Source of the DNA: Pasteurella multocida
GTDB taxonomy: Bacteria > Pseudomonadota > Gammaproteobacteria > Enterobacterales > Pasteurellaceae
DNA length: 32,000 nucleotides
Assembly (NCBI RefSeq): GCF_900187275.1
Contig: NZ_LT906458.1
Coordinates: 1,620,001-1,652,000, forward strand
Direction: 5' to 3'
A program made the position numbers and the translations under genes. Shown here one piece after another: positions 4,232 to 19,078 of this stretch (within the stretch, counting starts at the first letter, position 1; each line of letters starts with the position of its first letter). The notes beneath the pieces were generated by a model that saw only the letters and a list, made by a program, of their open reading frames with translations, made no database searches and had not been told where the DNA came from.

Positions 4232-4259
4232 GGCGAGAATGGGAGTTGAATTCACAACC
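4232..4259. repeat. att-like degenerate copy of the tRNA-Sec 3' end (outermost junction)
   Basis: GGCGAGAATGGGAGTTGAATTCACAACC versus the tRNA copy GGCGGAGGAGAATGGGAGTCGAACCCACCC (18985-19014). It lies directly after the mdtD-like stop codon. Confidence 0.6.
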
Positions 4260-4334
4260 TAACCACTTGAATATAAATAGATTTATTTTAAGCAAATAAA
4301 AATAGGTAACAAAACAGGTAACAAAAACTGTTTT

Positions 4335-4498
4335 CACCCCTTATTTTTTGATTATTTTTTATACTCACTTTCTGTTTGATTATCTTCTCTAAAAATGAAT
4401 TTCGTTATAAAAAAGGAATAATTAAAACTTTTTAAGAGAGTGTCAGCCATTGGCTGATACTTATCAGGCATACGTTAGGATAATTTTCCTAACGGTGA
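4335..4498. repeat. island end module R1 (copy 1)
   Basis: Direct repeat of 6755-6923. The last ~95 nt differ at only a handful of positions. It contains overlapping palindromes TCAGCCA-T-TGGCTGA and CTGATA-CT-TATCAG, and the hairpin CGTTAGG-N8-CCTAACG. Confidence 0.8.
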
Positions 4499-4750
4499 AA
4501 CATTTAACTCTTATCTATTTGCTAATAATAACCGTTGTGCAAATTTACATATCGGACAATAACAATACGGATTATCTTCGTATGAGTACGGATAAAAAAC
4601 TAGTTATTAATGATCATTTACATGGGGTTGTTTTTAAAAATGACATTTTAAGTACACTGAAGAAAATAGGGAGTTAATACATCAAAACAAAGCATAAATA
4701 GATTAGTGAATCAAAAATTGGGGAATTTGATTGGTTAGTGAATTGAGAGT

Positions 4751-4777
4751 AAATAAAAACCGCCAGTGTGGCGGTTT
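4751..4777 (-). terminator. Rho-independent terminator of the GNAT-ASCH/ASCH cassette
   Basis: AAACCGCC-AGTGT-GGCGGTTT with a flanking A-run that gives a T-run on the minus strand. It lies immediately 3' of the ASCH gene stop. Confidence 0.65.
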
Positions 4778-4782
4778 GTTGA

Positions 4783-5157
4783 TTAATTAATGTAGCAATA
4801 AGACTGTGGAGGTGTGCCAGAAGCTATAACATCTGAAATCGCTAATGGTTCATCGTATAATTTGAATGAGTCAATTTCAAAAGCATGCGCTAAAGCTCTT
4901 GTGGAAAAATACTCATCAAAGAAATTTTTGGTAATACCAGAAAATTCTTTTGTTTTTTCCCAGAGTGATTCTGGTGTATGGGATATTACATCTTTAATCT
5001 TAAATTCACCGACCACTTTTCCAACAGGCATTGTGGAGTAAACGACAATTGTTGTTATTCCTTCGCGTTTTGGTAGCGATTTTCTAAACTCAAATTTTTT
5101 TTCACCTGAAATGATTTTTTCTACAAACTCAGGTTTAATCGATAATAAAACTTTCAT
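4783..5157 (-). CDS. ASCH (PUA-like) domain protein, 124 aa
   Basis: N-terminal LLSIKPEFVEKIISGEKKFEFRK and VGKVVGEFKIKDV blocks are typical of ASCH-fold proteins. It overlaps the upstream gene by 23 nt. Confidence 0.7.
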   Translation of the reverse strand: MKVLLSIKPEFVEKIISGEKKFEFRKSLPKREGITTIVVYSTMPVGKVVGEFKIKDVISHTPESLWEKTKEFSGITKNFFDEYFSTRALAHAFEIDSFKLYDEPLAISDVIASGTPPQSYCYIN

Positions 5158-6184
5158 TGGCTTTTGATAAATATATAATTTTGTTAAATTTTTCGTCCGA
5201 AATTGGATGTAGTACTATTCTATTTTTACCTTGAATAATTCCATTGTCAAGCAAGGATTGCCGATTAATTCTTTTAGGCAACACTAAATTATATGTGAAT
5301 CTAATTACATATTCAGGATATTTTTCATAGTAGAAACGGGATAACTCTTGCTCTGTAAATACACTAAATTTTAGACAATATTTAAGATATTCAGAGAGTG
5401 TTTTAAATTCGCTAACATGACGCACACTTTCTACTACGCAAACGGAGGATAATACAGATCTGTAATAAGCTCTCTTTGCGATATCAGTCATTCTATACAT
5501 CACAAGAATATCACCCCTCCTTAGATTATTCGCACCATAAGCTGCTGATATATAAATCTTGTGTATGCTATTTGAATGTGACACATCTTTAATAATATCT
5601 GGAGATTCTCCAAATAATTTTGATTCTGGAAACATTCTTGTGTGGTATTCAGGTTTTATGGCAAGTAGATATTTATTAGCGTTTTGTTGATGAATGAAAG
5701 GGTAGTCTTGATAAATATGGTTCTTAATCACATGGAGATCTCTTAGGTAAACAAATTCAGTCCCGTTCGGGCTAACTTTTTCTCCATTCTTCTCAAAACC
5801 ATAGAATTTGAACAAGTCGATTAATGGCTCATGTTTTTCAAAAACAGTAAGATAAACTATATCGACATGGTTTGTTATGGCAATATCTAATATTTTCTTT
5901 ATAAACCTTTGTCCTCTTAATGTTCCAGCAGGATTAAACTTAAACGTCCCCACTTTCATCACAGCTTTTCCTCGAATGGGTGGGTTTACATCTTCTACAT
6001 CACTCTCAAATTTATAATATAAAAAGCCTTCTATCAGGTTATTATCGTTATATAAAACATAAGCCCACTCGTTTGACTTTCTTTGAAACCAGTCAGAAAA
6101 CTCTTTATAATCTTTCTTTAAGCTATCAAAGAATGGATCGTCTAAATTGACATCTGAGAAGAGTACAACTTTTAAGTTATCCAT
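5135..6184 (-). CDS. two-domain protein: N-terminal GNAT-like acyltransferase plus C-terminal ASCH-like domain (349 aa from ATG 6184)
   Basis: ATG 6184 is preceded by AAGGAAAAAT; the track start at 6214 lacks an SD. GNAT-like core: VGTFKFNPAGTLRGQRFIKKILDIA...VYLTVFEKHEPLIDLFKFYGFEKNGE. The C-terminal half opens LLAIKPEYHTRMFPES and continues RRGDILVMY...VCVVESV, paralleling the downstream ASCH protein. Confidence 0.55.
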   Translation of the reverse strand: MDNLKVVLFSDVNLDDPFFDSLKKDYKEFSDWFQRKSNEWAYVLYNDNNLIEGFLYYKFESDVEDVNPPIRGKAVMKVGTFKFNPAGTLRGQRFIKKILDIAITNHVDIVYLTVFEKHEPLIDLFKFYGFEKNGEKVSPNGTEFVYLRDLHVIKNHIYQDYPFIHQQNANKYLLAIKPEYHTRMFPESKLFGESPDIIKDVSHSNSIHKIYISAAYGANNLRRGDILVMYRMTDIAKRAYYRSVLSSVCVVESVRHVSEFKTLSEYLKYCLKFSVFTEQELSRFYYEKYPEYVIRFTYNLVLPKRINRQSLLDNGIIQGKNRIVLHPISDEKFNKIIYLSKANESFIID

Positions 6185-6362
6185 ATTTTTCCTTATGTTA
6201 AATCCACTAATCACAAAGCACAGACCACCAAAAGACTTTGTTTATCAAGTGCCACGCTAAATTCAAAAAAATCACCTTTATAACAAGTTGATTTTTAATA
6301 CTACGACAATAGCGTTATATAAACAAATATCTATTATATGTTTTGTGATCCGCCTCAAAGAG

Positions 6363-6533
6363 TAAAAAAGGTCGAAAAACTGGAATAACAATTTAAGGAG
6401 TTTTTAGGAGCAGTAGTTTGGGCTTTTTACTTGAACTTTTTACCCCCTCCCTATATCTGAAAATTTTAATTTCGCGGTTGTAAAAATTGAGTTAGTGGAG
6501 CGGTTGATAAAGTAAAAAGTAGTAGAGATTTAA
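6363..6533. repeat. island end module R2 (copy 1)
   Basis: Direct repeat of 6948-7118 (TAAAAAAGGTC..ACTGGAATA...ATATCTGAAAATTTTAATTTCGCGGTTG.AAAAATTGAGTTAGT...GTAGAGATTTA). Confidence 0.8.
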
Positions 6534-6629
6534 TCGTCTCTCTTCCAAATAATGTTATAAGCATTAAATACACAAATTTTTTAATATGTGACACATAATC
6601 AATATGTGGATTTACGAGGGGGGGTGATG

Positions 6630-6674
6630 AAGATTAATTTATGGAGTGGCGGAGATCATGGGAGTCCAATTCAC
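6630..6674. repeat. central att-like junction between the two elements
   Basis: AAGATTAATTTATGGA (6630-6645) is identical to 18967-18982. TGGCGGAGATCATGGGAGTCCAATTCAC (6647-6674) is a degenerate copy of the tRNA-Sec 3' end. Confidence 0.7.
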
Positions 6675-6722
6675 TATATAACATATTGATTTATAAAAGA
6701 CTAAATTTTAACACCCTAAAAT

Positions 6723-6744
6723 ATAGTACTATTCCTAGTACTAT
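6723..6744. promoter_or_regulatory. two TAGTACTAT repeats at the distal island end (candidate integrase/Xis arm-type sites)
   Basis: ATAGTACTAT (6723-6732) and CTAGTACTAT (6735-6744). The same 8-9-mer recurs five times next to int (18689-18861). Confidence 0.45.
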
Positions 6745-6754
6745 TTTTGTTTGC

Positions 6755-6923
6755 TACCCCCTGTTTTGATTATTTTTCATACTTATTTTTTTGTTTGATT
6801 CATCTTTTCTAAAAATGAGTTTCTTTACATTATAAAAAAGGACTAATTAAAACTTGTTAAGAGAGTGTCAGCCATTGGCTGATACTTATCAGGTATACGT
6901 TAGGATAATTTTCTTAACGGTGA
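6755..6923. repeat. island end module R1 (copy 2)
   Basis: Direct repeat of 4335-4498. Confidence 0.8.
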
Positions 6924-6947
6924 TTCTGCCGATTTTGCCGATGCTAT

Positions 6948-7118
6948 AAAAAAGGTCAAAAAACTGGAATAGCGATTTAAAGAGTTTTCAGGGGCGGTAT
7001 TCAAGACTTTTTATCTAAACTTTTTCCCCACCCTCCCCATATCTGAAAATTTTAATTTCGCGGTTGCAAAAATTGAGTTAGTAGGGCGGTTGCTAAAGTG
7101 AAAAGCTGTAGAGATTTA
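6948..7118. repeat. island end module R2 (copy 2)
   Basis: Direct repeat of 6363-6533. Here it lies only ~25 bp after R1 copy 2. Confidence 0.8.
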
Positions 7119-7154
7119 GCCTCCCCCTCCCTTTCTATCAACATTTTTAGGCAA

Positions 7155-7177
7155 TAAAAAAGCACCATTTAGGTGCT
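7155..7177 (-). terminator. Rho-independent terminator of the Abi gene
   Basis: AGCACC-ATTTA-GGTGCT preceded by AAAAAA, which gives a T-run on the minus strand. It overlaps the stop codon. Confidence 0.6.
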
Positions 7178-8119
7178 TTCATTATAGTTCTGTTTCATTA
7201 ACTCTATAGGCAGTGTTGTATACTCTCCTAACCCCATAAACTCTAATTTAGCATTTGGAACATCGGGAAAATCAGTATCAATTAAATCCTTTAGTTTTTC
7301 TAACCATTTATAGTTTTTGCTGTCAGTCTGCTGAATTAAATACCATAATATTAATATGCGACTAAAAACACGTTGCGATGTCCTTTCGTTCGTTTCTACT
7401 CTAGTGTTAGGTAAAGTAATAGCATTAAAATCTTTATTCCATACTCGAGAATGATGCGCACACAAGTTTCTCAAAATGTTGATTTCATGTAGCCATTTTT
7501 CAAAAGTAACATGATCTATACCAAATTTCTTGGAAATTTTTTTCTGATTGTTTCCTTTTAAAAATGAGTAATATTTTGATAAGGTTCCAAAATCCCATAT
7601 TTCTACAATCACCCAAAAAGGTATTTCTTTATCATTTTCCCTATGATAAATAATAAACTCAGCTTTATTTCTTTTAATTTCGTCCTGTAACTTAGGTAAC
7701 CAAACATTATCATAATTTCTTCTTACTTTTGGACTATCTTTCTTAATAAAATCCTTATTTTTATATGCTAATGGATCTATGCGACCTAATTCATGCGCCA
7801 TAACCGAACGTATGTTAACCTCTAATCTTTCGATAATATCTAACAGTAATAATCTCAGTTTTTTATCGAATAAATAAAGCTTATAAACTTCATTAAAAGA
7901 TGTATTTGGTAAAAACTCATCAATAAATTGACTTTGTCTTATGCCATTTTCAGTAACTATAGCAGTCCTTCTACTAGTAAACCAAAATCCAGAAAGACGA
8001 TAATAACCAACCTGAGAAAGTTTTCTTTTCGCGTATGAAATATCTTCAACTACCATCTTTCTAGTAAGCAAAATATCAACTAACTCAGCATATTCCTTAT
8101 GAGGTTTTGTTAAAAGCAT
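7169..8119 (-). CDS. Abi_2 (AbiD/AbiF-like) abortive-infection protein with HEPN Rx4H motif
   Basis: N-terminal ...KLSQVGYYRLSGFWF... is typical of Abi_2. RNLCAH (Rx4H, about nt 7454-7471) is a HEPN RNase signature. The gene is AT-rich with its own terminator. Confidence 0.75.
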   Translation of the reverse strand: MLLTKPHKEYAELVDILLTRKMVVEDISYAKRKLSQVGYYRLSGFWFTSRRTAIVTENGIRQSQFIDEFLPNTSFNEVYKLYLFDKKLRLLLLDIIERLEVNIRSVMAHELGRIDPLAYKNKDFIKKDSPKVRRNYDNVWLPKLQDEIKRNKAEFIIYHRENDKEIPFWVIVEIWDFGTLSKYYSFLKGNNQKKISKKFGIDHVTFEKWLHEINILRNLCAHHSRVWNKDFNAITLPNTRVETNERTSQRVFSRILILWYLIQQTDSKNYKWLEKLKDLIDTDFPDVPNAKLEFMGLGEYTTLPIELMKQNYNEST

Positions 8120-8730
8120 AGGATAATAAAGAAGAAGAAAGGAAGGGTAAGGAGGTAGCTTTTACACTCAACATTTCGGATTGAGGTCAGTTTTATCGTT
8201 TAGGCTACCCCACGATTGCGGTGTATTTTACACAAAATAAGATCTAAAACAAGGATATAGATCACATTTTTGATGGGTCATATAGGGCTGTATAGGGTCA
8301 AAACTCAGTTTTTCAATACGAGACAGCAAGGAAACTAAATGACTTCACAGACAGATTTCTGTTATTAAACAATCTATAAATATAGACCGTAGTCCTTATT
8401 AGGAGTTCCAAGCATTGCTTAATATTTACCCCTTTGAACTAATCATAATGTGGCTAAAGTAAGATTTTGGAATAAAGAAAAAAAGCCAGCAATTTCTGAA
8501 AACCCATCCGCTTCAATTGCATTGGGATCTTACATCAGATGCTGACCTTTCTAGGAAGAATATTAAAACCGAAACCGATCTAAGTCAATACATTCAACCT
8601 GCACCCAACATTGGTGGATGTAAATATCCTCAATAGTATTATGTAGCATAATCTCCCTCATTTTTCATAAATCCACCGCCACGATTTTTATCAAGAAAAA
8701 AAGCAATGTGTATATATAAGCAAAAAACTA

Positions 8731-8954
8731 TAGGACCAATAGGACCATAGGACCAATTCAGGATTGGCGCGGGTTGAAGGCTTGTTTTTTGGTCCTATTC
8801 CATTTTTAAAAATAGGACCAGTAGGACCAAAATAGGACCACTTTTTAAAATGGTCATTTTTTGAGCTTTAAAAAATAGGACCAGATTTTATTTATTTTTT
8901 ATATAAGTTATTGTTTTTTATCTATATATTATTTTCTGGTCCTATTGGTCCTAT
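8731..8954. repeat. iteron array with AT-rich core: putative island replication origin
   Basis: (A)TAGGACCA at 8731, 8740, 8748, 8812, 8822, 8832 and 8876. Inverted GGTCCTAT at 8791, 8938 and 8947. An AT-rich stretch spans 8885-8935. The array lies immediately downstream of the primase-helicase gene. Confidence 0.65.
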
Positions 8955-9092
8955 AAAAAAACTGTTATCTACACGAAAAAACTTTTTATCTAATTTTTTT
9001 AATTCTGCGTCCATTGCCTTGTGTAAAATAAATGCTACATATTTTACGAATTTTGGATATTCTCCTAATTAATATGCTACATATTAAGCAAT

Positions 9093-9116
9093 AAAAAAGA
9101 GGGCGCTTGCCCTCTT
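9093..9116 (-). terminator. Rho-independent terminator after the primase-helicase gene
   Basis: AAGAGGGC-GCTT-GCCCTCTT with an A-run on the plus strand, giving a T-run on the minus strand. Confidence 0.65.
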
Positions 9117-9132
9117 GTTTATACTGGATAGG

Positions 9133-11310
9133 TTATGTATTTTCTTCCTCCTCGCTTTCCACCAGCGTATAGAGTAAATAACATCTTGTGCGATCACCTT
9201 TTATTTGGCGTGGGAGTTTGATTGTAAATCCATACCCCTTTTCCTTTCCTCGCTTTAACATTCCTTTCTCGGCTAGGATTTGGCAAGCCTGCTTTTTAGG
9301 ATGTCCTTTTATTGCCTCGTCAAATGCCATTGGGTACAAATAAAAATACTCTTGTTCATCGCTCTTGCTATCAGGTATTACACGAAAGCCAGCGATATTG
9401 TTTACTTCTCTTTGCGTTGGATCTATTGGGTATCTAATAAAACGCCCCTCCGCATTTGCTAAAAGCCAGCCATTCACTTGCTCAATAACCTGTAATTCCT
9501 CACGGCTATGATAACCAAAGATATTTACCCACTCATTAAATGCTTTCGTTATCGCATTTTCACATTCGCCCACATCCCACCCCGTGAAGTCTAGGGAAAG
9601 TTTTAACGTCATTTCTAATATCGAAAAACGGCTCATTACACGCTTAACTTGTGAATGGCAATCATTCGGCAAGGTATTTAATCTATTCTCTAAAATGGCT
9701 CGATATAACGGCTCTATGGCGTTGTTATGGTGTAAATCAATAAGGTGCTTAATCCACTCACGCCCTATAACGCCATAATGCAATTTTGAGGCTTGGTTTA
9801 AATGGTCTGCGTGCGCCTTTCCGTCTTTGTGGTGGTGGAATTGAGTAGCCCTTTGTAGTGGAATATTCAACAATCGGACTAATTGCCCCACATTCGTTTT
9901 TATCCCCACGTTAGTTAAGTAAGTTTCTAAATCTATTTCCCCCGTAGAAAAAGCCACCGTGCGCCAGCGTGCTAAATCTCGGTTTCCTCCCTCTTTTGCG
10001 CCTTGTATCTTGCCTACACCATTAAATAGACTATAAGCAATGTCGCCAACGTGCTTGCGGTTGGTGCTTTGCCCTATCTCATCCAACGGCATAAAACCAT
10101 CATTGCGTGCTTGCGCCTCGTTGCTAATCCCTAGCGGTGTAGTTAGCCAACTTAAACGGATTTCATCAGGATGACCATAGATAGAACTTGCAATATTGGC
10201 GATGGTTGTTTTGCCTGTTGAGCTACCCCCAAAGATATGAACACCAAAGCTCTCCGCATTGATCAAATGAATAATAGGCGCACTTAACGCAACGGCTACA
10301 CCTAACATCATAAACGGATTACCGGCCACATTATTGGCGATTTCCTGTTGCCAGCTTTCAATGCTACCCCTTACCCCATAGCCTTTATTATTGGCGGACT
10401 GCCCCACAAAAAATACTGGCGTTTTAGGCTCTCCAATAACCTCGCCATTAGGGAGAATATATGCGCCTGATTGCCACCCTGTCGCATTTACTACGCGATA
10501 AAAGCCCTTTTGATAGTAGTCTTGTAAATAATCGGCTAAGTAAGGTCGTAAGCGTTGATTATTCGTGATATTTAAACCATTTTTACGCAATAACTGCCAG
10601 CCTGTACGCTCGCCCACATCTTTTAACGGCAACGCAAGCAATGTATTATTATCACTATTATGCGGTTTAAAACTAATCATGGTGTAATACTCTTCATCAC
10701 TTCGACCTTGTCCAACCACCTCTAATTCATCACTCAGCCAATCTTCACGCTCAATAATTTCCCCAGTATCCTTATCTAATTTTGGAGTAATGCGATATAA
10801 GCCACTTTTACCGCCTATTTTGCGCTTTTCTATGTAAGGTGACATATTATCCACCCAAACATTATTTTCCTTCTCTATGCCCTCCTGTGCGATTATTTCA
10901 GCCATACCGCTATCTTGTCTTACTCGCTTAATGTAACTGCTTAGATTTTCGGTTACTTCGCCAATACAATTACATAATGCCAATTGATCAACTTTAGAAT
11001 GTTTGGCAAGGTTAAGACAAAGTGCGGTAATTTGCGCCTGTGAAAGCTCACCGCATTGAATCAGCCTTACAGCTCTCTGCGCTGGTGGAACAATTGCTAA
11101 CCGCTCTAGCTCGTTTAATTGTTTTACGTCAAGGATAATCGGCTTTTGTGTGGCGTTATGCTGTAATGCTTGGCAAAGTAAGAGCCATCCCTCGCCCTTA
11201 CCTTTACCCCACCATTCCCACGCTTGACTGCCTGCTAGCACAATTAAATCACTAAATGGCTCATTGGGTTGTTCTTTAAGGTGCGGTGCTTGGATCATTT
11301 TTTTACTCAT
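9133..11310 (-). CDS. DUF927/P4-alpha-like primase-helicase (replication initiator)
   Basis: Walker A FGGSSTGKTT and Walker B-like MPLDEIGQ. The central block VNATGWQSGAYILPNGEVIG is typical of DUF927 proteins. ATG 11310 is preceded by GGGGGCGGAA; the track start at 11337 is less likely. Confidence 0.75.
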   Translation of the reverse strand: MSKKMIQAPHLKEQPNEPFSDLIVLAGSQAWEWWGKGKGEGWLLLCQALQHNATQKPIILDVKQLNELERLAIVPPAQRAVRLIQCGELSQAQITALCLNLAKHSKVDQLALCNCIGEVTENLSSYIKRVRQDSGMAEIIAQEGIEKENNVWVDNMSPYIEKRKIGGKSGLYRITPKLDKDTGEIIEREDWLSDELEVVGQGRSDEEYYTMISFKPHNSDNNTLLALPLKDVGERTGWQLLRKNGLNITNNQRLRPYLADYLQDYYQKGFYRVVNATGWQSGAYILPNGEVIGEPKTPVFFVGQSANNKGYGVRGSIESWQQEIANNVAGNPFMMLGVAVALSAPIIHLINAESFGVHIFGGSSTGKTTIANIASSIYGHPDEIRLSWLTTPLGISNEAQARNDGFMPLDEIGQSTNRKHVGDIAYSLFNGVGKIQGAKEGGNRDLARWRTVAFSTGEIDLETYLTNVGIKTNVGQLVRLLNIPLQRATQFHHHKDGKAHADHLNQASKLHYGVIGREWIKHLIDLHHNNAIEPLYRAILENRLNTLPNDCHSQVKRVMSRFSILEMTLKLSLDFTGWDVGECENAITKAFNEWVNIFGYHSREELQVIEQVNGWLLANAEGRFIRYPIDPTQREVNNIAGFRVIPDSKSDEQEYFYLYPMAFDEAIKGHPKKQACQILAEKGMLKRGKEKGYGFTIKLPRQIKGDRTRCYLLYTLVESEEEENT

Positions 11311-11737
11311 TTCCGCCCCCTTGTATCTCGTCCACATTAAAACTAACGCTATGTAATTTGCTAATTAAATATTTAGCACCACGCATAAAGGATTTAATCT
11401 GCCCCTTTTGTTCTTTACTTAACGTTTTTCCTTCTGCTAATTTTTCCACCACCAGCAAGCCTTTTGATAACCGTTCGGCTAAATCATCACATTCTTTGGC
11501 TAATTTAATCTTATGGTGATAGCAATCTGGAAATTCATTAAAACAACGTTGGTTACTGTCTTTTATCAGCTGAAATTGGCGGTTAATTTGCGTATATAGC
11601 ACACATAAGCCATTTCCTTTGCCTAAGGTGAGGGTTGGCTTTCTATCGTTCAAATAACCCTCTAATTTCGCTTTAAACGGCTTATTAGGTTCGGTGGTGG
11701 ATTTCGCTACTTTCATTTGAGTAATTGGATTCATCAT
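11303..11737 (-). CDS. hypothetical protein (144 aa), satellite core
   Basis: ORF with ATGA overlap to the upstream gene and an 8-nt overlap with the primase gene. No family recognised. Confidence 0.5.
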   Translation of the reverse strand: MMNPITQMKVAKSTTEPNKPFKAKLEGYLNDRKPTLTLGKGNGLCVLYTQINRQFQLIKDSNQRCFNEFPDCYHHKIKLAKECDDLAERLSKGLLVVEKLAEGKTLSKEQKGQIKSFMRGAKYLISKLHSVSFNVDEIQGGGNE

Positions 11738-12060
11738 TGATCACCTCCTAAACCGTCCGGATGACTAATTCTGATTTCAGAATACAAACCAGTGGTTTTT
11801 AAATAATCAGATACATCACAAGCTTGAGCATAGGTAGGATATTCGCCCACAAAAGCAATCTCGCCTTGTTTATCAAAAACAGTGATTTCATAAGGAGAAC
11901 GCTCTACTCTCAATGTTGAACTATAAACAAGCGGATCGTTATCCATTGCCTCACGTGCGATTTGTGCTGCCTCTTGGTATGTTTTCCCGGTGGCAATAAT
12001 GAATGGTTGACCTTCTACGGTTTCATCTTCTCGATAAGTGATTACGCTGTATTTACGCAT
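11734..12060 (-). CDS. hypothetical protein (108 aa), satellite core
   Basis: ATG preceded by GGAGGTGATTT. It is translationally coupled (ATGCGTAA junction) to the upstream ORF. Confidence 0.5.
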   Translation of the reverse strand: MRKYSVITYREDETVEGQPFIIATGKTYQEAAQIAREAMDNDPLVYSSTLRVERSPYEITVFDKQGEIAFVGEYPTYAQACDVSDYLKTTGLYSEIRISHPDGLGGDQ

Positions 12061-12448
12061 AAATCACCTCCATAGCAGGAGCAAAAGCAATAGGTGTGCG
12101 TGAACGAACCGCTAAAAGTGCGGTAGATTTTTGACTAGTTTTCATTGTGGGATTTCTCAATAGTTTAGTAAAAGGAGTACCGCACTTAGTAGGGTGCGAT
12201 ACGGTCTCAACTACCGCTATTGAACGGCTAACCTTATTCGTGCGCAAATGCGCCTTATTTCGGTTTATCAACCGTACCGCAAATTCGGTTAATGATAGGG
12301 TGTCAGTCAATGGCTGATACTCTAAAGAGTGAATTTGAGGTAAAAAAATACCGCTTGAATAACGCTTGCGGTTAGCGTCAATAGATGTAGTACCTTGAAT
12401 ACTACTAGCAATAACAGATCTTGACAATGCTTTTTTCACATTACGCAT
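12053..12448 (-). CDS. hypothetical basic protein (131 aa)
   Basis: ATG preceded by AAGGGGGTATTT, with an ATGCGTAA overlap to the Icd-like ORF. It contains a third copy of the R1 palindrome motif (12300-12321). Coding status is uncertain. Confidence 0.4.
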   Translation of the reverse strand: MRNVKKALSRSVIASSIQGTTSIDANRKRYSSGIFLPQIHSLEYQPLTDTLSLTEFAVRLINRNKAHLRTNKVSRSIAVVETVSHPTKCGTPFTKLLRNPTMKTSQKSTALLAVRSRTPIAFAPAMEVIYA

Positions 12449-12638
12449 AAATACCCCCTTTAACCTCTAAAGTGCGGTCATTTTTTGCGGTGTTTGGTAA
12501 GCGACCTAAGAGAATAAGAACATAATTACGCGCTAAATAGGCTCTCGCTTGGGTTTCGTTATCAGCTAATATGCGGATTTGTTCTGCTTTGGTTTGGTCG
12601 TAGTGTTGGCGTGATATGCCTAAGAATTGGTAAATCAT
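12441..12638 (-). CDS. Icd-like small protein (65 aa); the open frame extends upstream to 13037
   Basis: Internal ATG 12638 has GGAG 8 nt upstream. MIYQFLGISRQ...IRILADNETQARAYLARNYVLILLGRLP matches my recollection of the 'host cell division inhibitor Icd-like' pattern (..FL....R....R..A..E..AR..LA....L...GRLP). Confidence 0.45.
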   Translation of the reverse strand: MIYQFLGISRQHYDQTKAEQIRILADNETQARAYLARNYVLILLGRLPNTAKNDRTLEVKGGIYA

Positions 12639-13018
12639 TTGCGTAACTCCGTATGTAAAATTATTGAGAGTTACCGCTAAAAGTTTCCACGCTTTAGGGC
12701 GGTAACGTGCGACTGGGTGGAAAACTGCGACATACGGTACACAGCCAACGATTAAACGTTGCCAATCGCACGCTACCATTGAGAATAGATCCATTGCTGG
12801 ATTTATTTTAGGTGTGCGAACTTCACGAACAAAAAAAGCACGGTTAAATGGCGTGCTACTGTTCGCCGTATGTTTATTATTCGAGTTTCCACGCTCGGTT
12901 AGCGATTTTGCGCTAACGATTAAATAATGCCAAAACGCACCGCACTTTGTAAAGCGTTTTAGCTCACTTTTTTTAAATAAATCGGATTTTTTGAATAGCA
13001 TTTTGATATAATCCCTTT

Positions 13019-13075
13019 GCCTAGATATTGATTTCATTCCAAAGCCTCATTGAGTTAAACTCGGTGAGGTTTTTT
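13019..13075 (+). ncRNA. candidate ~57-nt antisense sRNA covering the start codon and RBS of the 13037 minus-strand ORF
   Basis: Extended -10 TGaTATAAT at 13004-13012. A plus-strand-specific terminator follows: CCTCATTGAG-TTAAA-CTCGGTGAGG plus TTTTTT (13045-13075). The two G-U pairs become A-C mismatches on the other strand. All neighbouring genes are on the minus strand. Confidence 0.35.
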
Positions 13076-13123
13076 GTTTCTTGCCGTAATCTTGCCGTTT
13101 TATCAGCCTATCTTTTATGTAAA

Positions 13124-13486
13124 TCACCGCCTTTTAAGCCATTTTGAGAACCTAATTTTTTGATTCAATCCAGCCAGTTCTGTTGCTGTTAAAATGTCAT
13201 GTTTTGCTGGTGGATCTTTCCTATCACTCATTAAATCTGTTCTCTCTGTTCTGCCCCTGTAATGTGGTAATAATTCCCCTTGTTTTGCCATTTCTGCCTT
13301 AAATTCCTCTATCATTTCAACAGTACGATAATCATTTAACAGCTCGCTTGCTCTTGCCCTGATAGTGTGCGGTTTCATTCGTGATAACTGGCTTTCACTT
13401 AATACCGTTTTTAAGGCGTGCGTAGCATTTCCTAATCTTGAATACGCTTTGGCAAACTCCTTTCTCACTTGATACCCATAGCCCAT
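13124..13486 (-). CDS. small-terminase-like HTH protein (120 aa)
   Basis: VRKEFAKAYSRLGNATHALKTV...IRARASELLNDYRTVEMIEEF resembles the N-terminal DNA-binding domain of the phage TerS (Terminase_2) consensus (F..Y...GNAT.A......A.A..LL....V...I). Confidence 0.45.
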   Translation of the reverse strand: MGYGYQVRKEFAKAYSRLGNATHALKTVLSESQLSRMKPHTIRARASELLNDYRTVEMIEEFKAEMAKQGELLPHYRGRTERTDLMSDRKDPPAKHDILTATELAGLNQKIRFSKWLKRR

Positions 13487-13542
13487 TCCACCACCCTATA
13501 TACTTTATATGTTCAGTTTTCCCCTTGTATGTGTACCACTTT

Positions 13543-13905
13543 CCTCAATTTTGAGGTTTGTTTTAAAATCAACGACTTATAATTCCCTCAAATTGAGGTA
13601 AAGCCATACTCCCTCGCGCGCGCTCGTACTGGTCGCAAAATTGCCTTTTTTATGGACTCCAAGAATTCAGGGTATTCACCACTCCCTCGCTCGCACTGGA
13701 AAGGTTGCCGTAATGGTGCCGTCCCCTAATCTTCCTCACGCGCTTACTGAATTTAACTGGACCAATTTTGGTCTCGTTGAATATACTTCCTCGTATGTGT
13801 TTGTACTGGAATATCCCTTTTTTATGGACTCGCAAAATTCCCAAAACCACCATTGGTGGACTGGCTCAAAATTGAGCTGGTTTTCATCTCCTAAAATTTG
13901 AGGAG
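13543..13905. promoter_or_regulatory. palindrome- and repeat-rich intergenic region (operator array and/or packaging site)
   Basis: Four related dyads: CCTCAATTTTGAGG (13543-13556), CCTCAAATTGAGG (13586-13598), GCTCAAAATTGAGC (13864-13877) and CTCCTAAAATTTGAGGAG (13888-13905). GTACTGG...CCTTTTTTATGGACTC is duplicated (13626-13659 and 13803-13831). CCACCA-T-TGGTGG sits at 13847-13859. Confidence 0.5.
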
Positions 13906-13947
13906 ATTACCGCCAACTTGTGTTAGTTCAGTTGTGGTCACGAGCAT

Positions 13948-14223
13948 TCATTTTTTCTCAACCTCGCTTAGCCTTTTCTCTAACTTATTCAGCGTTTGCC
14001 TAGCCTTGAGTAATTGCCCCAATAAGAACTCCGTAGGGTATTGTTTATATTCCCGTTCAATTTCTAGCACCTTTTCTTTCTGCAGTTGGATGACCTCACT
14101 TAATGGATAGGGTTCGTTATCGTCATCAAGACTAAGAAAATAGTAGGTAGTCGCTCTCACCAAGTAATGTTGAACGGCATTAGGTAAGAGAAAACGCTTA
14201 GCTATCTTGTTCTTTATTTCCAT
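13948..14223 (-). CDS. hypothetical protein (91 aa from ATG 14223)
   Basis: ORF in the satellite operon. ATG 14223 is preferred over TTG 14235. No family recognised. Confidence 0.45.
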   Translation of the reverse strand: MEIKNKIAKRFLLPNAVQHYLVRATTYYFLSLDDDNEPYPLSEVIQLQKEKVLEIEREYKQYPTEFLLGQLLKARQTLNKLEKRLSEVEKK

Positions 14224-14384
14224 TTCTTTTCCCAATAAATTCGCTTTTCTTCTACGGTGAGATTGTGAAAGTGAGTAGCATATCCACCGTGCTTTAATGC
14301 GTTAAATCGGCTATGGCGATATGCTTTTTCCGTTTCGCAAATAGGCGTTTTATTTCGCACTTTTGGCGTTATCTGAACACTCAC
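14214..14384 (-). CDS. possible small ORF (56 aa, GTG start), below the ORF-track cutoff
   Basis: VSVQITPKVRNKTPICETEKAYRHSRFNALKHGGYATHFHNLTVEEKRIYWEKKWK*. Its stop overlaps the next gene's ATG (ATGGAAATAA). It fills an otherwise empty 180-nt gap in a tightly packed operon. Confidence 0.3.
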   Translation of the reverse strand: MSVQITPKVRNKTPICETEKAYRHSRFNALKHGGYATHFHNLTVEEKRIYWEKKWK

Positions 14385-14414
14385 AATCCACCACCAGCAA
14401 GGGTTTAACGGTTT

Positions 14415-14693
14415 TCACAATTCGCAATTTGTTTCGCAATTTATCTGTAATAATTGCGCTAATTTTTCTTGGATATTCTCCACGTCATAAATTAAGCAGT
14501 TAATACGCTCTAACGCCCACTCTAGATAGTCTTTATCGCTCATCCTGACGTTAGGCTCTCCCTCTGTTTTTATCGTTGGATAACCTTTATCTATGGCGAT
14601 TTCTAAACTCTCTTGGATATTGTTTAACTGCGCCAAAATATCTGCGTATGTAGGTTTATATTGGCTTTCTGCTGGTGGATTGGTATCAAGCAT
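14415..14693 (-). CDS. hypothetical protein (92 aa)
   Basis: ATGCTTGA overlap with the Rha gene stop. No family recognised. Confidence 0.5.
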   Translation of the reverse strand: MLDTNPPAESQYKPTYADILAQLNNIQESLEIAIDKGYPTIKTEGEPNVRMSDKDYLEWALERINCLIYDVENIQEKLAQLLQINCETNCEL

Positions 14694-15408
14694 TTAATGC
14701 CCCCTTTCTCAAATGGTGTAATGTGGTTTCCTGTAACTGTGCTTTGCGCTGGTGGTAGCCCATACCTAACTTAATCATTACGGCATTTTCAGAAAGCAAC
14801 TGATCAACTAATTGCAACTGATCAACGGTCAAGCATTGTCTTATTTCCACATCATCAGGATAGCCATTCTCCAGTAGCCACGATTTACGGCTATTCCCTA
14901 GTGCTACTACATAAACAAGGTTATTTTCTCGGCTGTATGCGTGAGGGTCATCTTTGCCTACTTGTTCTAAGCGGTACTTAATCGCCTCATTCATTCGTAG
15001 TTGATCAACTTTCATATTGGCGCGTGTCGCAAGGCGTTTTTTCATCTCGTTAAACTCTTTGATGTACTGCTCTTTAAATTGCATTGCTTTCTTGCCAGTA
15101 AAGCCCATCACTAACAACGTAAAACCATCTTGGGTCATTAAATACATTGGTCTTTTCTCACCTTTCTCATCGGTGTATTTAACCGCCTTAAAATTAAGGG
15201 CGTTAAATTCAGGCGAACAACCTAAGTTTTTTATAGTCGCTAGAAGATTATCGTGCCGTTTACCAAAGTAATGCGCTACTTTTAGGCTATCTGTCATCGC
15301 TACCGTTTCCTTGTGAAAGACTTTAGGAAATACTGCGCTATTTACCGCACTTTCTGCGCCTTGTAGCTCGTTTACTTGGTTTACTTGATTCTTGGTATTA
15401 ATCATCAT
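14686..15408 (-). CDS. Rha-family phage regulatory protein (antirepressor-like)
   Basis: TDSLKVAHYFGKRHDNLLATIKNL...YLMTQDGFTLLVMGFTGKKAMQFKEQYIKEFNEM matches the Phage_pRha signature. GAGGA lies upstream of the ATG. Confidence 0.75.
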   Translation of the reverse strand: MMINTKNQVNQVNELQGAESAVNSAVFPKVFHKETVAMTDSLKVAHYFGKRHDNLLATIKNLGCSPEFNALNFKAVKYTDEKGEKRPMYLMTQDGFTLLVMGFTGKKAMQFKEQYIKEFNEMKKRLATRANMKVDQLRMNEAIKYRLEQVGKDDPHAYSRENNLVYVVALGNSRKSWLLENGYPDDVEIRQCLTVDQLQLVDQLLSENAVMIKLGMGYHQRKAQLQETTLHHLRKGALNA

Positions 15409-15425
15409 TAAATCCTCGCTATGCG

Positions 15426-15848: not shown

Positions 15849-15857
15849 AATTCCCCC

Positions 15858-16055: not shown

Positions 16056-16152
16056 AAATACCCCTTTTAATTTGGTTAATTAAAATTAAGCAAAGTATTT
16101 CGTTTTGCTTGGGAGTATTTTGCTGTGGGAATTTTAGTAAGCCTATCCAACG

Positions 16153-16219: not shown

Positions 16220-16252
16220 AAACAGATAATCAACTAAATGAATTTTAGGCAA

Positions 16253-17357: not shown

Positions 17358-18641
17358 TTAAGCCACAACCTTAAGATGTTTTGGTGGTGGAATAATTGGC
17401 TCTGGTGCTTGGCTTTCTACATAGTCCGCCCATTCTTGTAACATCACCGCCCTTTGTGAGAGATATAAAGATTTATCATAGGTTCTGCGGATCTGGTTTT
17501 TATCTTTATTTTGCTTGTGTGATAAGGCTCTTTCTATCCAGTCGGCTTTGTAGTCTTTCTCGTTTAATGACGTGCTGAATAAATGGCGTATGCCGTGCGT
17601 AGTGAGGCGATTTTCCCCTATACCCTTGATAATGGCTTTACGCATTGCCTCAATGCTTAAATGACCGCTTTTCACTGTTAAACTGGCAAATACAAATTCA
17701 CTCTCAATGCCAAGTACGGTGTGTAATTGTTGCATTTTATTAAATATCCCAATTGCTTGGCGTGATAGTGTTACTACGTGTTCTCGCCCCTCAGGTAGAT
17801 TTTTATTGCCCTTTTGGACTCGGTAGATCCACGTTTTCTCTTTGTAATGAATATCCGCCCATTTCGCTTTGGCGATTTCAGACGGTCGCCCACCAGTCAA
17901 TACCACCAGCATCACCGCATAAAATGAAAACGGATTAAAACGGTTTTCATCTCTTGCTCGGTAAAAGCCGTGTAAGAACTCGCTTAATTCTTCAGGGGTA
18001 ATGGTATTCATTCCCTTAGAGACTGGCTTATCAAATTCCTTGCCTATTTCTGCCAGCGGATTATGTGCAATCAATCCCCTATGAAGTGCGAACCGCATCA
18101 CATTGTTAAGATTGCCAATAATCTTTTTAACGGTTTCTAACTTGCCCTCTTTCTCTAGTGGTTTAAGCGCATTAATGGCGATAAGTGGCGTGATTTCTGA
18201 TATTGGATAATTGGCAAAGTGTGGGAGTAAATGACGTTCAAATAAAGCCCACGTATCTTTGGCGGTACGTTCTGAAAAGTTAGCCTTTATCTTTCTATCT
18301 TCAAACCACGCTTTAGCCATCTTCTCAAAGGTACGGCTTAGCTTATCCGCTTGTGCTTGTTCTTGTTGCTTACGGTAAGTTTGCGGATCGATATTATTCG
18401 CCAGCAAGGCATTAAATTCATCGCGCTTGGCTCTGGCTTGTGATAGTGATAAATCAGGGTAAGTACCCAAGCTAATTGTAGTGCGTTTCTTAGTGTAAGG
18501 CTGGGCGTATCTAAAACGCCATAATTTCGCCCTTTTACGTGATACTTCTAAAAATAGCCCGTCACCATCATATAGTGGCTTGCTTGTCGCTTTTGCGTTT
18601 TTAATCTCGCTGTCTGTTAGTTTCTTCACTAATCTAGCCAT
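17358..18641 (-). CDS. int: P4-family tyrosine integrase
   Basis: N-terminal arm-binding-type region (KLTDSEIKNAK...GDGLFLEV...KLWRFRY). C-terminal TTHGIRHLFSTS and a conserved Tyr region (RRTYDKSLY). It is adjacent to the tRNA 3' end. Confidence 0.9.
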   Translation of the reverse strand: MARLVKKLTDSEIKNAKATSKPLYDGDGLFLEVSRKRAKLWRFRYAQPYTKKRTTISLGTYPDLSLSQARAKRDEFNALLANNIDPQTYRKQQEQAQADKLSRTFEKMAKAWFEDRKIKANFSERTAKDTWALFERHLLPHFANYPISEITPLIAINALKPLEKEGKLETVKKIIGNLNNVMRFALHRGLIAHNPLAEIGKEFDKPVSKGMNTITPEELSEFLHGFYRARDENRFNPFSFYAVMLVVLTGGRPSEIAKAKWADIHYKEKTWIYRVQKGNKNLPEGREHVVTLSRQAIGIFNKMQQLHTVLGIESEFVFASLTVKSGHLSIEAMRKAIIKGIGENRLTTHGIRHLFSTSLNEKDYKADWIERALSHKQNKDKNQIRRTYDKSLYLSQRAVMLQEWADYVESQAPEPIIPPPKHLKVVA

Positions 18642-18983: not shown

Positions 18984-19078
18984 TGGCGGAGGAGAATGGG
19001 AGTCGAACCCACCCGAGATTGCTGGCAACCTCAACAGGATTTGAAGTCCTGCCGCTTCACCGGAAACGACGCTCCTCC
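18984..19078 (-). tRNA. selC: tRNA-Sec (UCA)
   Basis: The reverse complement reads GGAGGAGCGTCGTTTCCGGTGAAGCGGCAGGACTTCAAATCCTGTTGAGGTTGCCAGCAATCTCGGGTGGGTTCGACTCCCATTCTCCTCCGCCA. This gives 95 nt with a long acceptor stem, anticodon loop CTTCAAA (UCA), a long variable arm, GGTTCGACTCC T-loop and encoded CCA. It lies next to selA. Confidence 0.9.

What the first reader, a model, noticed from the sequence alone, without database searches (positions are those of the whole stretch)
4751..6184. Candidate undescribed two-gene module: GNAT-like/ASCH-like fusion plus stand-alone ASCH protein as sole cargo of a mini-island
Seen: two minus-strand genes overlap by 23 nt (5135-5157) and have their own terminator (4751-4777). 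They are visibly more AT-rich than the flanks and contain no uptake-signal copies. The 124-aa product carries ASCH-type blocks (LLSIKPEFVEKIISGEKKFEFRK, VGEFKIKDV). The N-terminal half of the 349-aa product reads like a GNAT core (VGTFKFNPAGTLRGQRFIKKILDIA, VYLTVFEKHEPLIDLFKFYGFEKNGE). Its C-terminal half re-uses the ASCH-like opening (LLAIKPEYHTRMFPES ... RRGDILVMY ... VCVVESV). Known: ASCH/PUA-like domains bind RNA or modified bases, and E. coli YqfB is an N4-acetylcytidine amidohydrolase. GNAT toxins (TacT, AtaT, ItaT) acetylate charged tRNA. Phage satellites and islands concentrate immunity genes at their ends. Inference: this is an acetyl 'writer' coupled to 'reader/eraser' ASCH modules. 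That would make it a reversible-modification toxin-antitoxin or abortive-infection system, with logic analogous to DarT/DarG. I do not recognise this composition as any named defence system.
Basis: partly seen in the sequence, partly recalled or inferred. Interest (0 to 1): 0.8.

Follow-up and report, generated by a model that had tools for sequence, protein, structure and literature searches.

The report
Catalogued GNAT-EVE plus ASCH module
The two overlapping genes are real and form a tightly conserved pair, but the pair is not undescribed: it belongs to a family of prophage- and island-borne predicted toxin-antitoxin or anti-phage modules (GNAT-EVE + ASCH, PADLOC candidate PDC-M11, annotated 'GevT/GevA' in an E. 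coli phage) for which I found no published experimental test of function.

Summary
Every sequence-level observation checks out. This covers the two minus-strand genes, the 23-nt overlap, the terminator, the low GC, the absence of uptake signals, and a 2.4-kb segment bounded by att-like repeats whose only cargo is this pair.

Domain calls hold. The 349-aa protein is an N-terminal GNAT fused to a PUA-superfamily barrel that is EVE-like rather than ASCH proper. The 124-aa protein is a canonical ASCH and a close structural match to Zymomonas ZmASCH.

The claim that the module is undescribed fails on three counts:
- Both proteins match PADLOC models PDC-M11A and PDC-M11B over their full length (E 4e-125 and 6e-48).
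- Bell et al. 2020 described '(PIN)-GNAT-EVE + ASCH (+AAA_17)' operons as predicted toxin-antitoxin systems common in prophages.
- GenBank PV340567 annotates 54%-identical orthologues in a lambdoid coliphage as 'GevT toxin' and 'GevA antitoxin'. They sit directly after cI, in the rexAB slot.

The ASCH gene accompanies the fusion gene in 80 of 80 loci across many phyla. A 23-35-nt overlap is preserved in 74 of them.

Function as a toxin-antitoxin or exclusion module is well supported by context. I found no published test of it. The writer/eraser mechanism stays a plausible inference. Novelty is low and interest moderate.

The parts
5135..6184 (-). GevT-like gene (PDC-M11A), 349 aa: GNAT-EVE fusion and predicted toxin or effector
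   Evidence: The ORF is. PADLOC PDLC04419 matches at E 3.8e-125 over the full length. It is 54% identical to the 'GevT toxin' of phage PhiR47_2. The AF2 model has pLDDT 89.9. There are 664 homologues and 385 clusters at 50% identity with E<=1e-30.
5705..6184 (-). GNAT acetyltransferase domain (about residues 1-160). It carries the invariant loop T88-x-R90-G91-x-R93...K96-K97 and motif B Y128-G129-F130.
   Evidence: Foldseek matches Naa50, PaiA, NatD and Naa60. A PDB profile search matches PaiA 1tiq at E 2.4e-4 over residues 39-144. Weak Pfam GNAT hits occur in 23 of 40 homologues.
5138..5683 (-). C-terminal PUA-superfamily (EVE-like) beta-barrel domain (about residues 168-349). It is the predicted nucleic-acid or modified-base binding module.
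   Evidence: Foldseek matches ZmASCH 5guq/5y6b with TMt 0.67-0.70. Weak Pfam EVE hits occur in 9 of 40 homologues. Bell et al. 2020 class the domain as EVE. Invariant residues include H181, D200, S202, N205, S206, K209, Y230, R231, N299, R305 and R308.
4783..5157 (-). GevA-like gene (PDC-M11B), 124 aa: stand-alone ASCH protein of the GxKxxExR ('GKER') type and predicted antitoxin
   Evidence: Pfam ASCH matches at 3.2e-8. PADLOC PDLC04425 matches at 5.5e-48. It is 54% identical to the 'GevA antitoxin'. ZmASCH matches at E 3e-17. The AF2 model has pLDDT 96 and TM 0.90 / rmsd 1.8 A to ZmASCH. Invariant residues are G18, K20, E23, R25 and Y40, and S119 is nearly invariant.
5135..5157 (-). 23-nt dual-coding overlap. 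The stop codon TAA of the upstream gene lies inside the downstream gene's invariant Ile7-Lys8 codons (ATT AAA), which implies translational coupling.
   Evidence: The sequence is. The same 23-nt overlap occurs in at least 52 of 80 loci, and an overlap of 23-35 nt occurs in 74 of 80 loci across phyla.
4757..4777 (-). Intrinsic terminator-like hairpin plus T-run, immediately after the ASCH gene
6185..6362 (-). 5' region of the cassette. It has a Shine-Dalgarno AAGGA at 6194-6190 and a 12-nt inverted repeat at 6267-6278/6285-6296. The promoter is not confidently located.
4235..4255 (.). Outermost att-like copy of the tRNA-SeC 3' end, forming the left boundary of the mini-island next to the chromosomal MFS transporter gene
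   Evidence: Repeat family D9 and the alignment.
6625..6674 (.). Middle att-like copy (50 nt, matching 18962-19012), forming the junction between the mini-island and the 12.3-kb island
   Evidence: Repeat families D9 and D13.
4344..4498 (.). Island-end homology block R1, repeated at 6762-6923 at 94% identity
   Evidence: Repeat families D2, D14 and D17.
6363..6532 (.). Island-end homology block R2, repeated at 6947-7118 at 81-91% identity. R1 and R2 are contiguous in the large island but are separated by the gene pair in the mini-island.
   Evidence: Repeat families D4 and D5.
7169..8119 (-). Context: AbiD/Abi_2 abortive-infection gene at the cargo end of the neighbouring island
   Evidence: Pfam Abi_2 at 2.3e-55 and PADLOC AbiD at 1.1e-62.
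17358..18641 (-). Context: tyrosine integrase of the 12.3-kb island, beside tRNA-SeC
18984..19078 (-). Context: tRNA-SeC, the integration target of both elements

Best explanation
**What it is**

The locus is a Pasteurella member of the GNAT-EVE + ASCH family. The same family is listed as PADLOC PDC-M11 and annotated as GevT/GevA.

**Where it sits**

It is the only cargo of a 2.4-kb, integrase-less remnant or cis-mobilisable island. That remnant lies in tandem with a 12.3-kb satellite-like island at tRNA-SeC.

**Proposed working**

1. The two genes are co-transcribed and translationally coupled through a conserved overlap. This is shown.
2. The 349-aa protein is the growth-arresting effector. 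Its EVE-like barrel docks on a nucleic acid, most likely a tRNA or other RNA carrying a particular base. Its GNAT domain transfers an acetyl group from acetyl-CoA to that target or to a group attached to it. This is inferred.
3. The 124-aa ASCH protein keeps the effector harmless in uninfected cells. The most likely route is enzymatic: hydrolysing the acetyl-amide mark, or removing the modified RNA. This is inferred from its intact K20/E23/R25 catalytic motif and from its close relative ZmASCH.
4. Phage infection tips the balance, which gives abortive infection or exclusion that benefits the island or prophage. This is inferred from context.

**My confidence by step**

| Claim | Confidence |
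|---|---|
| Family identity | about 0.97 |
| Toxin-antitoxin-type pair with an anti-phage or exclusion role | about 0.6 |
| Enzymatic writer/eraser on RNA specifically | about 0.35 |
For: **Identity**
- Both proteins match the PDC-M11A and PDC-M11B models over their full length.
- They are 54% identical to the pair annotated GevT toxin and GevA antitoxin, which has the same 23-nt overlap.
- The architecture matches the GNAT-EVE + ASCH (+AAA_17) operons of Bell et al. 2020.

**Coupling of the two genes**
- The ASCH gene is present in 80 of 80 loci, from Proteobacteria to Firmicutes, Bacteroidota, Verrucomicrobiota, Chloroflexota and Spirochaetes.
- The overlap is conserved.
- Natural fusions join the two proteins in one chain: PIN-GNAT-EVE-ASCH and ASCH-PIN-GNAT-EVE.

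**Active enzymes**
- The GNAT motif A/B residues are invariant.
- The ASCH GxKxxExR residues are invariant.
- Lys and Glu of this motif are essential for tRNA deacetylation in the ASCH proteins that were mutated in the preprint (TthASCH, EOLA1 and TRIP4). ZmASCH removed ac4C from purified tRNA in vitro (bioRxiv 10.64898/2026.02.27.708502).
- ZmASCH binds nucleic acid and cleaves ssRNA (PMC5615036).

**Immune context**
- In lambdoid coliphages the pair sits directly after cI, in the rexAB slot.
- It is present in 275 of 5426 complete E. coli genomes, always chromosomal.
- It occurs in temperate phages of Salmonella, Lactobacillus and Helicobacter.
- In the window it lies next to AbiD. In P. oralis it lies next to a SoFic-like gene at the same tRNA-SeC hotspot.
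- A TIR(ThsB-like)-GNAT-EVE fusion exists.
- Payne et al. found the cassette embedded in RM, BREX or DISARM systems and counted 293 RefSeq instances.
Against: - I found no experimental paper on this family in the held library. The GevT/GevA labels are an annotation only, and PDC-M11 is explicitly untested.
- The GNAT domain shows no specific similarity to the known tRNA-acetylating toxins TacT, AtaT, KacT or ItaT.
- ZmASCH did not hydrolyse free ac4C and did not lower tRNA ac4C in vivo. Its genomic partner in Zymomonas is unrelated to GevT.
- Among the 148 nearest neighbours of 74 loci, only a few are known defence genes.
- The target could equally be DNA, as Iyer et al. 2013 proposed (cited).
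Confidence: 0.6

Rival explanations
1. This is a classical addiction module. The ASCH protein neutralises the GNAT-EVE toxin by direct protein binding, in the type II manner. The pair's main role would be to stabilise the island or prophage that carries it, not to defend against phage.
For: - The pair is the sole gene content of an integrase-less island remnant that has persisted across Pasteurella species.
- Fusions of the two proteins imply physical association.
- Association with known defence genes among nearest neighbours is only modest.
- Bell et al. predicted a toxin-antitoxin system without claiming defence.
Against: - The ASCH catalytic motif is invariant across phyla, which pure sequestration would not require.
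- The rexAB-slot position in lambdoid phages points to a role in conflict with other phages.
- So do the TIR fusions.
- Embedding inside RM and BREX loci points the same way.
Confidence: 0.2
2. This is a DNA-modification system. The GNAT-EVE protein acetylates a base, possibly one already modified, in DNA. The ASCH protein reads or regulates that mark. The mark could be a self label, or a way to disable phage DNA that carries hypermodified bases.
For: - Iyer et al. 2013 proposed base acetylation in DNA for this architecture (as reported in PMC7641849).
- EVE domains bind 5mC and 5hmC-type bases in DNA.
- HTH-ASCH and HsdS-ASCH fusions occur in related operons.
- The human TRIP4 ASCH domain binds dsDNA (PDB 8yfi among the Foldseek hits).
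Against: - Frequent N-terminal PIN RNase fusions point to RNA.
- The closest characterised ASCH, ZmASCH, acts on ssRNA and tRNA.
- No nuclease partner that would exploit a DNA mark is conserved.
Confidence: 0.12
3. The roles are reversed. The ASCH protein is the effector, an RNase like ZmASCH. The GNAT-EVE protein is its sensor or regulator, for example by acetylating and silencing it.
For: - ZmASCH degrades ssRNA in vitro.
- ASCH homologues (2753) outnumber GNAT-EVE homologues (664), and they pair with other partners.
Against: - The GenBank annotation names the long protein as the toxin.
- GNAT, PIN and TIR are typical effector domains, and they are fused to the long protein.
- The gene order, with the antidote translated second and coupled, fits toxin first and antitoxin second.
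Confidence: 0.05

Closest known systems
PADLOC phage-defence candidate PDC-M11 (Payne, Hughes, Fineran & Jackson 2024, bioRxiv 10.1101/2024.01.29.577857)
   Same: Both window proteins match the PDC-M11A and PDC-M11B HMMs end to end (E 3.8e-125 and 5.5e-48). The gene order is the same (FAM_00697>>FAM_00247).
   Different: There is no difference in composition. The longer PDC-M11A models (444-501 positions) include an N-terminal PIN-type extension that is absent here. The candidate was defined by embedding in RM, BREX or DISARM systems, whereas here the pair lies in a tRNA-SeC island. It is untested.
(PIN)-GNAT-EVE + ASCH (+AAA_17) operons, predicted toxin-antitoxin systems (Bell et al. 2020, PMC7641849; earlier Iyer et al. 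2013)
   Same: It is a GNAT fused to a C-terminal EVE/PUA-like domain, with an ASCH gene adjacent. The PIN-less form is typical of prophages of beta- and gamma-proteobacteria. An AAA_17 gene accompanies the pair in 19 of 80 relatives.
   Different: The window copy has no AAA_17 gene and no PIN domain. It lies in an island remnant rather than a complete prophage.
GevT toxin / GevA antitoxin of Escherichia phage PhiR47_2 (GenBank PV340567.1 annotation)
   Same: The two proteins are 54% identical over their full length, with the same sizes (357 and 125 aa), order and 23-nt overlap.
   Different: The coliphage copy sits directly after cI in the immunity region (the rexAB slot) and has no terminator-bounded cassette of its own. 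I found no publication describing the experiments behind the names.
ZmASCH, Zymomonas mobilis ASCH protein (PDB 5GUQ; PMC5615036)
   Same: The 124-aa protein matches it at E 3e-17, TM 0.90 and rmsd 1.8 A. They share the GxKxxExR motif and the Tyr47 and Ser128 equivalents (Y40, S119). ZmASCH itself hits PDC-M11B at 3e-29.
   Different: ZmASCH has a 24-residue longer sequence. Its upstream neighbour is an unrelated 375-aa protein, not a GNAT-EVE.
GNAT toxins of type II toxin-antitoxin systems (TacT, AtaT, KacT, ItaT)
   Same: It has a GNAT fold, is paired with a small neutralising partner, and is carried on mobile elements.
   Different: No specific sequence or structural similarity was detected. 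Those toxins are single-domain and use an RHH (DUF1778) antitoxin that binds the toxin and DNA. Here the partner is an ASCH enzyme-like protein, and the toxin carries an extra EVE domain.
DarT/DarG
   Same: The logic is analogous: a nucleic-acid-modifying toxin encoded first, followed by an enzyme that could erase the mark, with an anti-phage role.
   Different: There is no homology, because DarT/DarG is an ADP-ribosyltransferase with a macrodomain. The eraser activity is unproven here.
Lambda rexAB
   Same: The coliphage orthologues occupy the same position and orientation after cI, and would be expressed in lysogens.
   Different: The proteins and mechanism are unrelated.

Membership tests
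GNAT-EVE + ASCH operon / PDC-M11 / GevTA | Long protein with an N-terminal GNAT acetyltransferase domain | tested here: met
   Foldseek matches Naa50, PaiA and NatD at E about 1e-5. A PDB profile search matches PaiA at 2.4e-4. The motif A/B residues are invariant.
GNAT-EVE + ASCH operon / PDC-M11 / GevTA | C-terminal EVE/PUA-like barrel fused to the GNAT | tested here: met
   The AF2 model has pLDDT 89.9. The C-half superposes on ZmASCH with TMt 0.70. Weak Pfam EVE hits occur in 9 of 40 homologues.
GNAT-EVE + ASCH operon / PDC-M11 / GevTA | Adjacent gene for a stand-alone ASCH protein | tested here: met
   Pfam ASCH at 3.2e-8. The gene is found in 80 of 80 related loci and overlaps the GNAT-EVE gene in 74 of them.
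GNAT-EVE + ASCH operon / PDC-M11 / GevTA | Full-length match to the family's profile models | tested here: met
   PDLC04419 at 3.8e-125 (profile positions 11-357 of 357) and PDLC04425 at 5.5e-48 (1-123 of 132).
GNAT-EVE + ASCH operon / PDC-M11 / GevTA | Optional accessory AAA_17 P-loop protein | tested here: not met
   tblastn against the window gives no hit. The gene is present in 19 of 80 relatives. It is an accessory, not a defining requirement.
GNAT-EVE + ASCH operon / PDC-M11 / GevTA | Toxicity of the long protein and neutralisation by the ASCH protein | not testable with these tools
   The only support is the GenBank annotation 'GevT toxin / GevA antitoxin'.
GNAT-EVE + ASCH operon / PDC-M11 / GevTA | Protection against phage | not testable with these tools
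   PDC systems are explicitly untested. The evidence here is contextual only.
TacT/AtaT/KacT/ItaT GNAT toxin-antitoxin systems | Specific sequence or structural relatedness to these toxins | tested here: not met
   None of them appears among the PDB sequence hits at E<=10 or among the top 50 Foldseek hits.
TacT/AtaT/KacT/ItaT GNAT toxin-antitoxin systems | RHH/DUF1778 antitoxin partner | tested here: not met
   The partner is ASCH.
TacT/AtaT/KacT/ItaT GNAT toxin-antitoxin systems | Acetylation of aminoacyl-tRNA | not testable with these tools
   This needs a biochemical assay.
YqfB-type ac4C amidohydrolases | Thr or Ser in the octapeptide (GK[T/S]R) | tested here: not met
   The window protein has G18-E-K20-K-F-E23-F-R25, which is the GKER type. 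The classification follows.
ZmASCH-like (GKER) ASCH proteins | GxKxxExR motif plus a close fold and sequence match | tested here: met
   E 3e-17. TM 0.90 and rmsd 1.8 A. The motif is invariant.
DarTG | ADP-ribosyltransferase toxin with a macrodomain antitoxin | tested here: not met
   No such domains appear in the Pfam or PADLOC scans. The resemblance is one of logic only.
Integrase-less att-flanked island (CIME-like remnant) at a tRNA gene | Bounded by direct repeats of the tRNA 3' end, with no recombinase inside | tested here: met
   The repeats lie at 4235-4255, 6654-6674 and 18992-19012. Only the two ORFs lie inside. Mobility itself was not tested.

The most novel reading that the evidence does not exclude
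GevT/GevA is a reversible nucleic-acid acetylation immune switch. The GNAT-EVE enzyme writes an acetyl mark on tRNA or other RNA (or on DNA) that is recognised through a modified base. The ASCH partner is the dedicated eraser. Phage infection would uncouple the two. This would be the first immunity system based on nucleic-acid acetylation, and it would give a physiological role to the large GKER branch of ASCH proteins.
Probability: 0.3. Interest if true: 0.8.

Novelty: already known. Interest (0 to 1): 0.35.

Why it matters
This locus adds little that is new. It is a typical member of a family already flagged three times by comparative genomics, and PADLOC detects it automatically.

The family itself is still worth attention for four reasons:
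- It is widespread, with 385 clusters at 50% identity. Its E. coli representative is in about 5% of complete E. coli genomes.
- It occupies prime immunity real estate, namely the rexAB slot of lambdoid phages and defence slots at tRNA islands.
- It is fused in nature to PIN and TIR effector domains.
- It pairs a putative acetyl 'writer' with an ASCH protein, and that protein class has only just been reported to deacetylate tRNA.

The Pasteurella cassette is compact (1.7 kb, with its own terminator) and would be a convenient construct for such tests.

Tried and rejected
- **Literature for GevA/GevT, PDC-M11 and GNAT-EVE.** I found no experimental paper. Iyer et al. 2013 is not held.
- **Recent defence-discovery papers.** I checked three for ASCH, GNAT or PUA and found no mention.
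- **Is the fusion's C-terminal domain a duplicate of the stand-alone ASCH?** hhalign aligns only the first 22 residues, with probability 11%. I rejected this as a recent duplication. They share a superfamily fold only.
- **Is ZmASCH the cognate partner of a GNAT-EVE in Zymomonas?** It is not. Its neighbour is an unrelated 375-aa protein.
- **AAA_17 kinase remnant in the window.** There is none.
- **Enrichment of known defence genes among the 148 nearest neighbours of 74 loci.** It is only sporadic: Gabija GajB in 2-3 loci, ResIII in 2 and RelE in 2. The only recurrent neighbour is AAA_17.
- **Longer GTG start at 6214.** Rejected on the basis of homologue N-termini and the Shine-Dalgarno position.
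- **Housekeeping acetyltransferase.** Rejected because of the low GC, the island position, the patchy cross-phylum distribution and carriage by phages.
Full report
**Observation**

The window carries two minus-strand ORFs, at 4783-5157 (124 aa) and 5135-6184 (349 aa).

- The ATG at 6184 is the real start. Forty homologues all begin M-D/E-N-L at this position, and AAGGA lies 6 nt upstream.
- The genes overlap by 23 nt (5135-5157).
- A 9-bp GC-rich hairpin with a T-run follows the second gene at 4757-4777.
- GC is 0.31-0.34 across the pair against 0.40-0.45 in the chromosome. The low-GC tract runs on to about 9000.
- The Pasteurellaceae uptake signal AAGTGCGGT occurs 14 times in the window (0.24 expected) but never between 2821 and 11019.

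**Island anatomy**

tRNA-SeC lies at 18984-19078(-). Copies of its 3' end occur at 18992-19012, 6654-6674 and 4235-4255.

- The sequence just beyond the tRNA end (18962-18991) recurs at 6625-6654.
- Two further blocks are duplicated: 4344-4498 ~ 6762-6923 (94%) and 6363-6532 ~ 6947-7118 (81-91%).

The simplest reading is two related elements integrated in tandem at tRNA-SeC.

- The inner element spans 6654-18991 (12.3 kb). It has an integrase (17358-18641), Rha, an Ash-family protein, a DUF927 primase-like protein and an AbiD/Abi_2 gene at its cargo end.
- The outer element spans 4235-6674 (2.4 kb). It has no recombinase, and its only genes are the pair under study.

In Pasteurella oralis the whole 2.3-kb unit is 92.9% identical. 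It lies about 3 kb from tRNA-SeC, without the 12.3-kb island between them. A SoFic-like Fic gene occupies the place where the window has AbiD. So the 'mini-island, sole cargo' claim holds. The wider locus, however, is a variable defence hotspot.

**What the proteins are**

*The 349-aa protein.* It has only sub-threshold Pfam GNAT hits.

- A 40-sequence profile finds PaiA (1tiq) at E 2.4e-4.
- A confident AF2 model (pLDDT 89.9) matches N-terminal acetyltransferases and PaiA with its N-half. Its C-half matches the ASCH protein of Zymomonas mobilis (TMt 0.70).
- The acetyl-CoA loop (T88, R90, G91, R93, K96, K97) and the motif-B YGF (Y128-F130) are invariant.
- The C-terminal barrel gives weak Pfam EVE hits in 9 of 40 homologues and none to ASCH.
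- Its sequence similarity to the stand-alone ASCH is confined to the opening strand.

*The 124-aa protein.* It is a canonical ASCH.

- Pfam matches at 3e-8 and ZmASCH at E 3e-17.
- The model (pLDDT 96) superposes on ZmASCH at TM 0.90 and 1.8 A.
- The GxKxxExR motif (G18, K20, E23, R25) is invariant. Y40, the equivalent of ZmASCH Tyr47, is also invariant, and S119, the equivalent of Ser128, is nearly invariant.

**Is it undescribed? No.**

1. PADLOC-DB v2 has models PDC-M11A and PDC-M11B, and both proteins match them end to end (3.8e-125 and 5.5e-48). PDC-M11 is cassette CAS_00069 of Payne et al. 2024. It was found embedded in RM, BREX or DISARM systems, has 293 RefSeq instances, and is explicitly untested.
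2. Bell et al. 2020 (PMC7641849) describe GNAT-EVE fusions, often with an N-terminal PIN.
   - Their operons almost always encode an ASCH protein and often an AAA_17 ATPase.
   - They are predicted to be toxin-antitoxin systems.
   - Bell et al. credit Iyer et al. 2013 with the first description.
3. GenBank PV340567.1 (Escherichia phage PhiR47_2) annotates a 357-aa 'GevT toxin' and a 125-aa 'GevA antitoxin'.
   - They have the same 23-nt overlap and sit directly after cI.
   - They are 54% identical to the window proteins.
   - I could find no paper using these names.

**Conservation and variants**

A genome scan returned 80 loci from many phyla.

- The ASCH gene is present in all 80. It follows the GNAT-EVE gene on the same strand with a 23-35-nt overlap in 74 of them.
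- The upstream gene's TAA stop lies inside the downstream gene's invariant Ile7-Lys8 codons.
- The exceptions are Vibrionaceae and Shewanella loci. There the ASCH gene is convergent and paired with a P-loop gene, and the GNAT-EVE C-termini diverge.
- A roughly 175-aa AAA_17/AAA_18 protein is adjacent in 19 of 80 loci. None is present in the window.
- An exhaustive profile search finds 385 clusters at 50% identity with E<=1e-30. They fall into three length classes (about 350, 500 and 620 aa).
- The longer forms include PIN-GNAT-EVE, PIN-GNAT-EVE-ASCH, ASCH-PIN-GNAT-EVE and a TIR(ThsB-like)-GNAT-EVE.
- The E. coli version is in 275 of 5426 complete genomes at 99% identity or more, always chromosomal.
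- Homologues occur in lambdoid coliphages, Salmonella SopEPhi, Lactobacillus Lj965, a Helicobacter phage and Methanothermobacter psiM100.

**How it probably works**

*Shown.* There are two co-oriented, translationally coupled genes. They are obligately linked across phyla and sometimes fused. Both have intact enzyme-like motifs. They are carried by temperate phages and islands, in positions typical of exclusion genes.

*Inferred.* The GNAT-EVE protein is a nucleic-acid-directed acetyltransferase that arrests growth, and the ASCH protein counteracts it. An enzymatic antidote is attractive for three reasons.

- The catalytic Lys/Glu/Arg motif is invariant.
- Lys and Glu of this motif are essential for tRNA ac4C removal in TthASCH, EOLA1 and TRIP4.
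- ZmASCH removes ac4C from purified tRNA in vitro and binds and cleaves ssRNA.

PIN fusions also point to RNA.

*Caveats.*

- ZmASCH is inactive on free ac4C and in vivo, and its genomic partner is unrelated to GevT.
- The GNAT is not specifically related to TacT or AtaT.
- A DNA target has also been proposed.
- Known defence genes are only sporadic among nearest neighbours.

**Verdict**

The domain reading and the toxin-antitoxin/defence logic are reasonable, and they echo published predictions. The novelty claim is wrong, and the writer/eraser mechanism remains an untested hypothesis.

I rate the locus as already known, with moderate residual interest. I found no published experimental test of the family's mechanism, and this cassette would be a compact test article.

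Noticed in passing
window 6654-18991: A 12.3-kb satellite-like island is integrated at tRNA-SeC. It carries an integrase, Rha, an Ash-family protein, a DUF927 primase-like protein and AbiD. It lies in tandem with the 2.4-kb remnant, and the two share homologous ends.
   Followed up: partly
window 8725-8960 and 17122-17275: Two clusters of AAAAATAGGACCA iterons and a 90-nt repeat (8871-8960 and 17186-17275, 98% identical) lie 8.3 kb apart inside the large island. They may be integrase arm sites or a replication origin. They are unexplained.
   Followed up: no
L001:8025-9362 (Pasteurella oralis): A SoFic-like Fic protein (PADLOC SoFic 1.7e-46, HPFGDGNGR motif) occupies the slot next to the GevTA pair where the window has AbiD. 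This makes it a variable defence slot at tRNA-SeC.
   Followed up: partly
L085:3825-5447 (Zymomonas mobilis): The crystallised ZmASCH hits PDC-M11B at 3e-29. Its upstream neighbour is a 375-aa protein with no Pfam or PADLOC hit and no similarity to GevT. This may be a different partner for the same ASCH clade.
   Followed up: partly
P0251, P0310, P0331, P0336 (representative library): Several natural fusions exist: TIR(ThsB-like)-GNAT-EVE, PIN-GNAT-EVE-ASCH in one chain, and ASCH-PIN-GNAT-EVE. The two window proteins therefore also occur as a single polypeptide.
   Followed up: partly
L015, L019, L021, L027 (Photobacterium, Shewanella, Vibrio): In this alternative arrangement the ASCH gene is convergent to the GNAT-EVE gene and paired with an AAA_17 P-loop gene. 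The GNAT-EVE C-terminus loses the NESFII tail that the overlap imposes elsewhere.
   Followed up: partly
L081 and L082 (lambdoid coliphages PhiR47_2 and 4A7): The orthologous pair sits directly after cI and before kil/gam/bet/exo. This is the position of rexAB in lambda.
   Followed up: yes
Methanothermobacter phage psiM100 (AF301375, 8722-9417): A partial GNAT-EVE homologue (32% identity over residues 12-231) lies in the region annotated 'inserted fragment IFa' of this archaeal provirus.
   Followed up: no
window 6267-6296: A 12-nt inverted repeat (AAAAATCACCTT / AAGTTGATTTTT) lies about 90 nt upstream of the GevT-like start. It is a possible operator.
   Followed up: no
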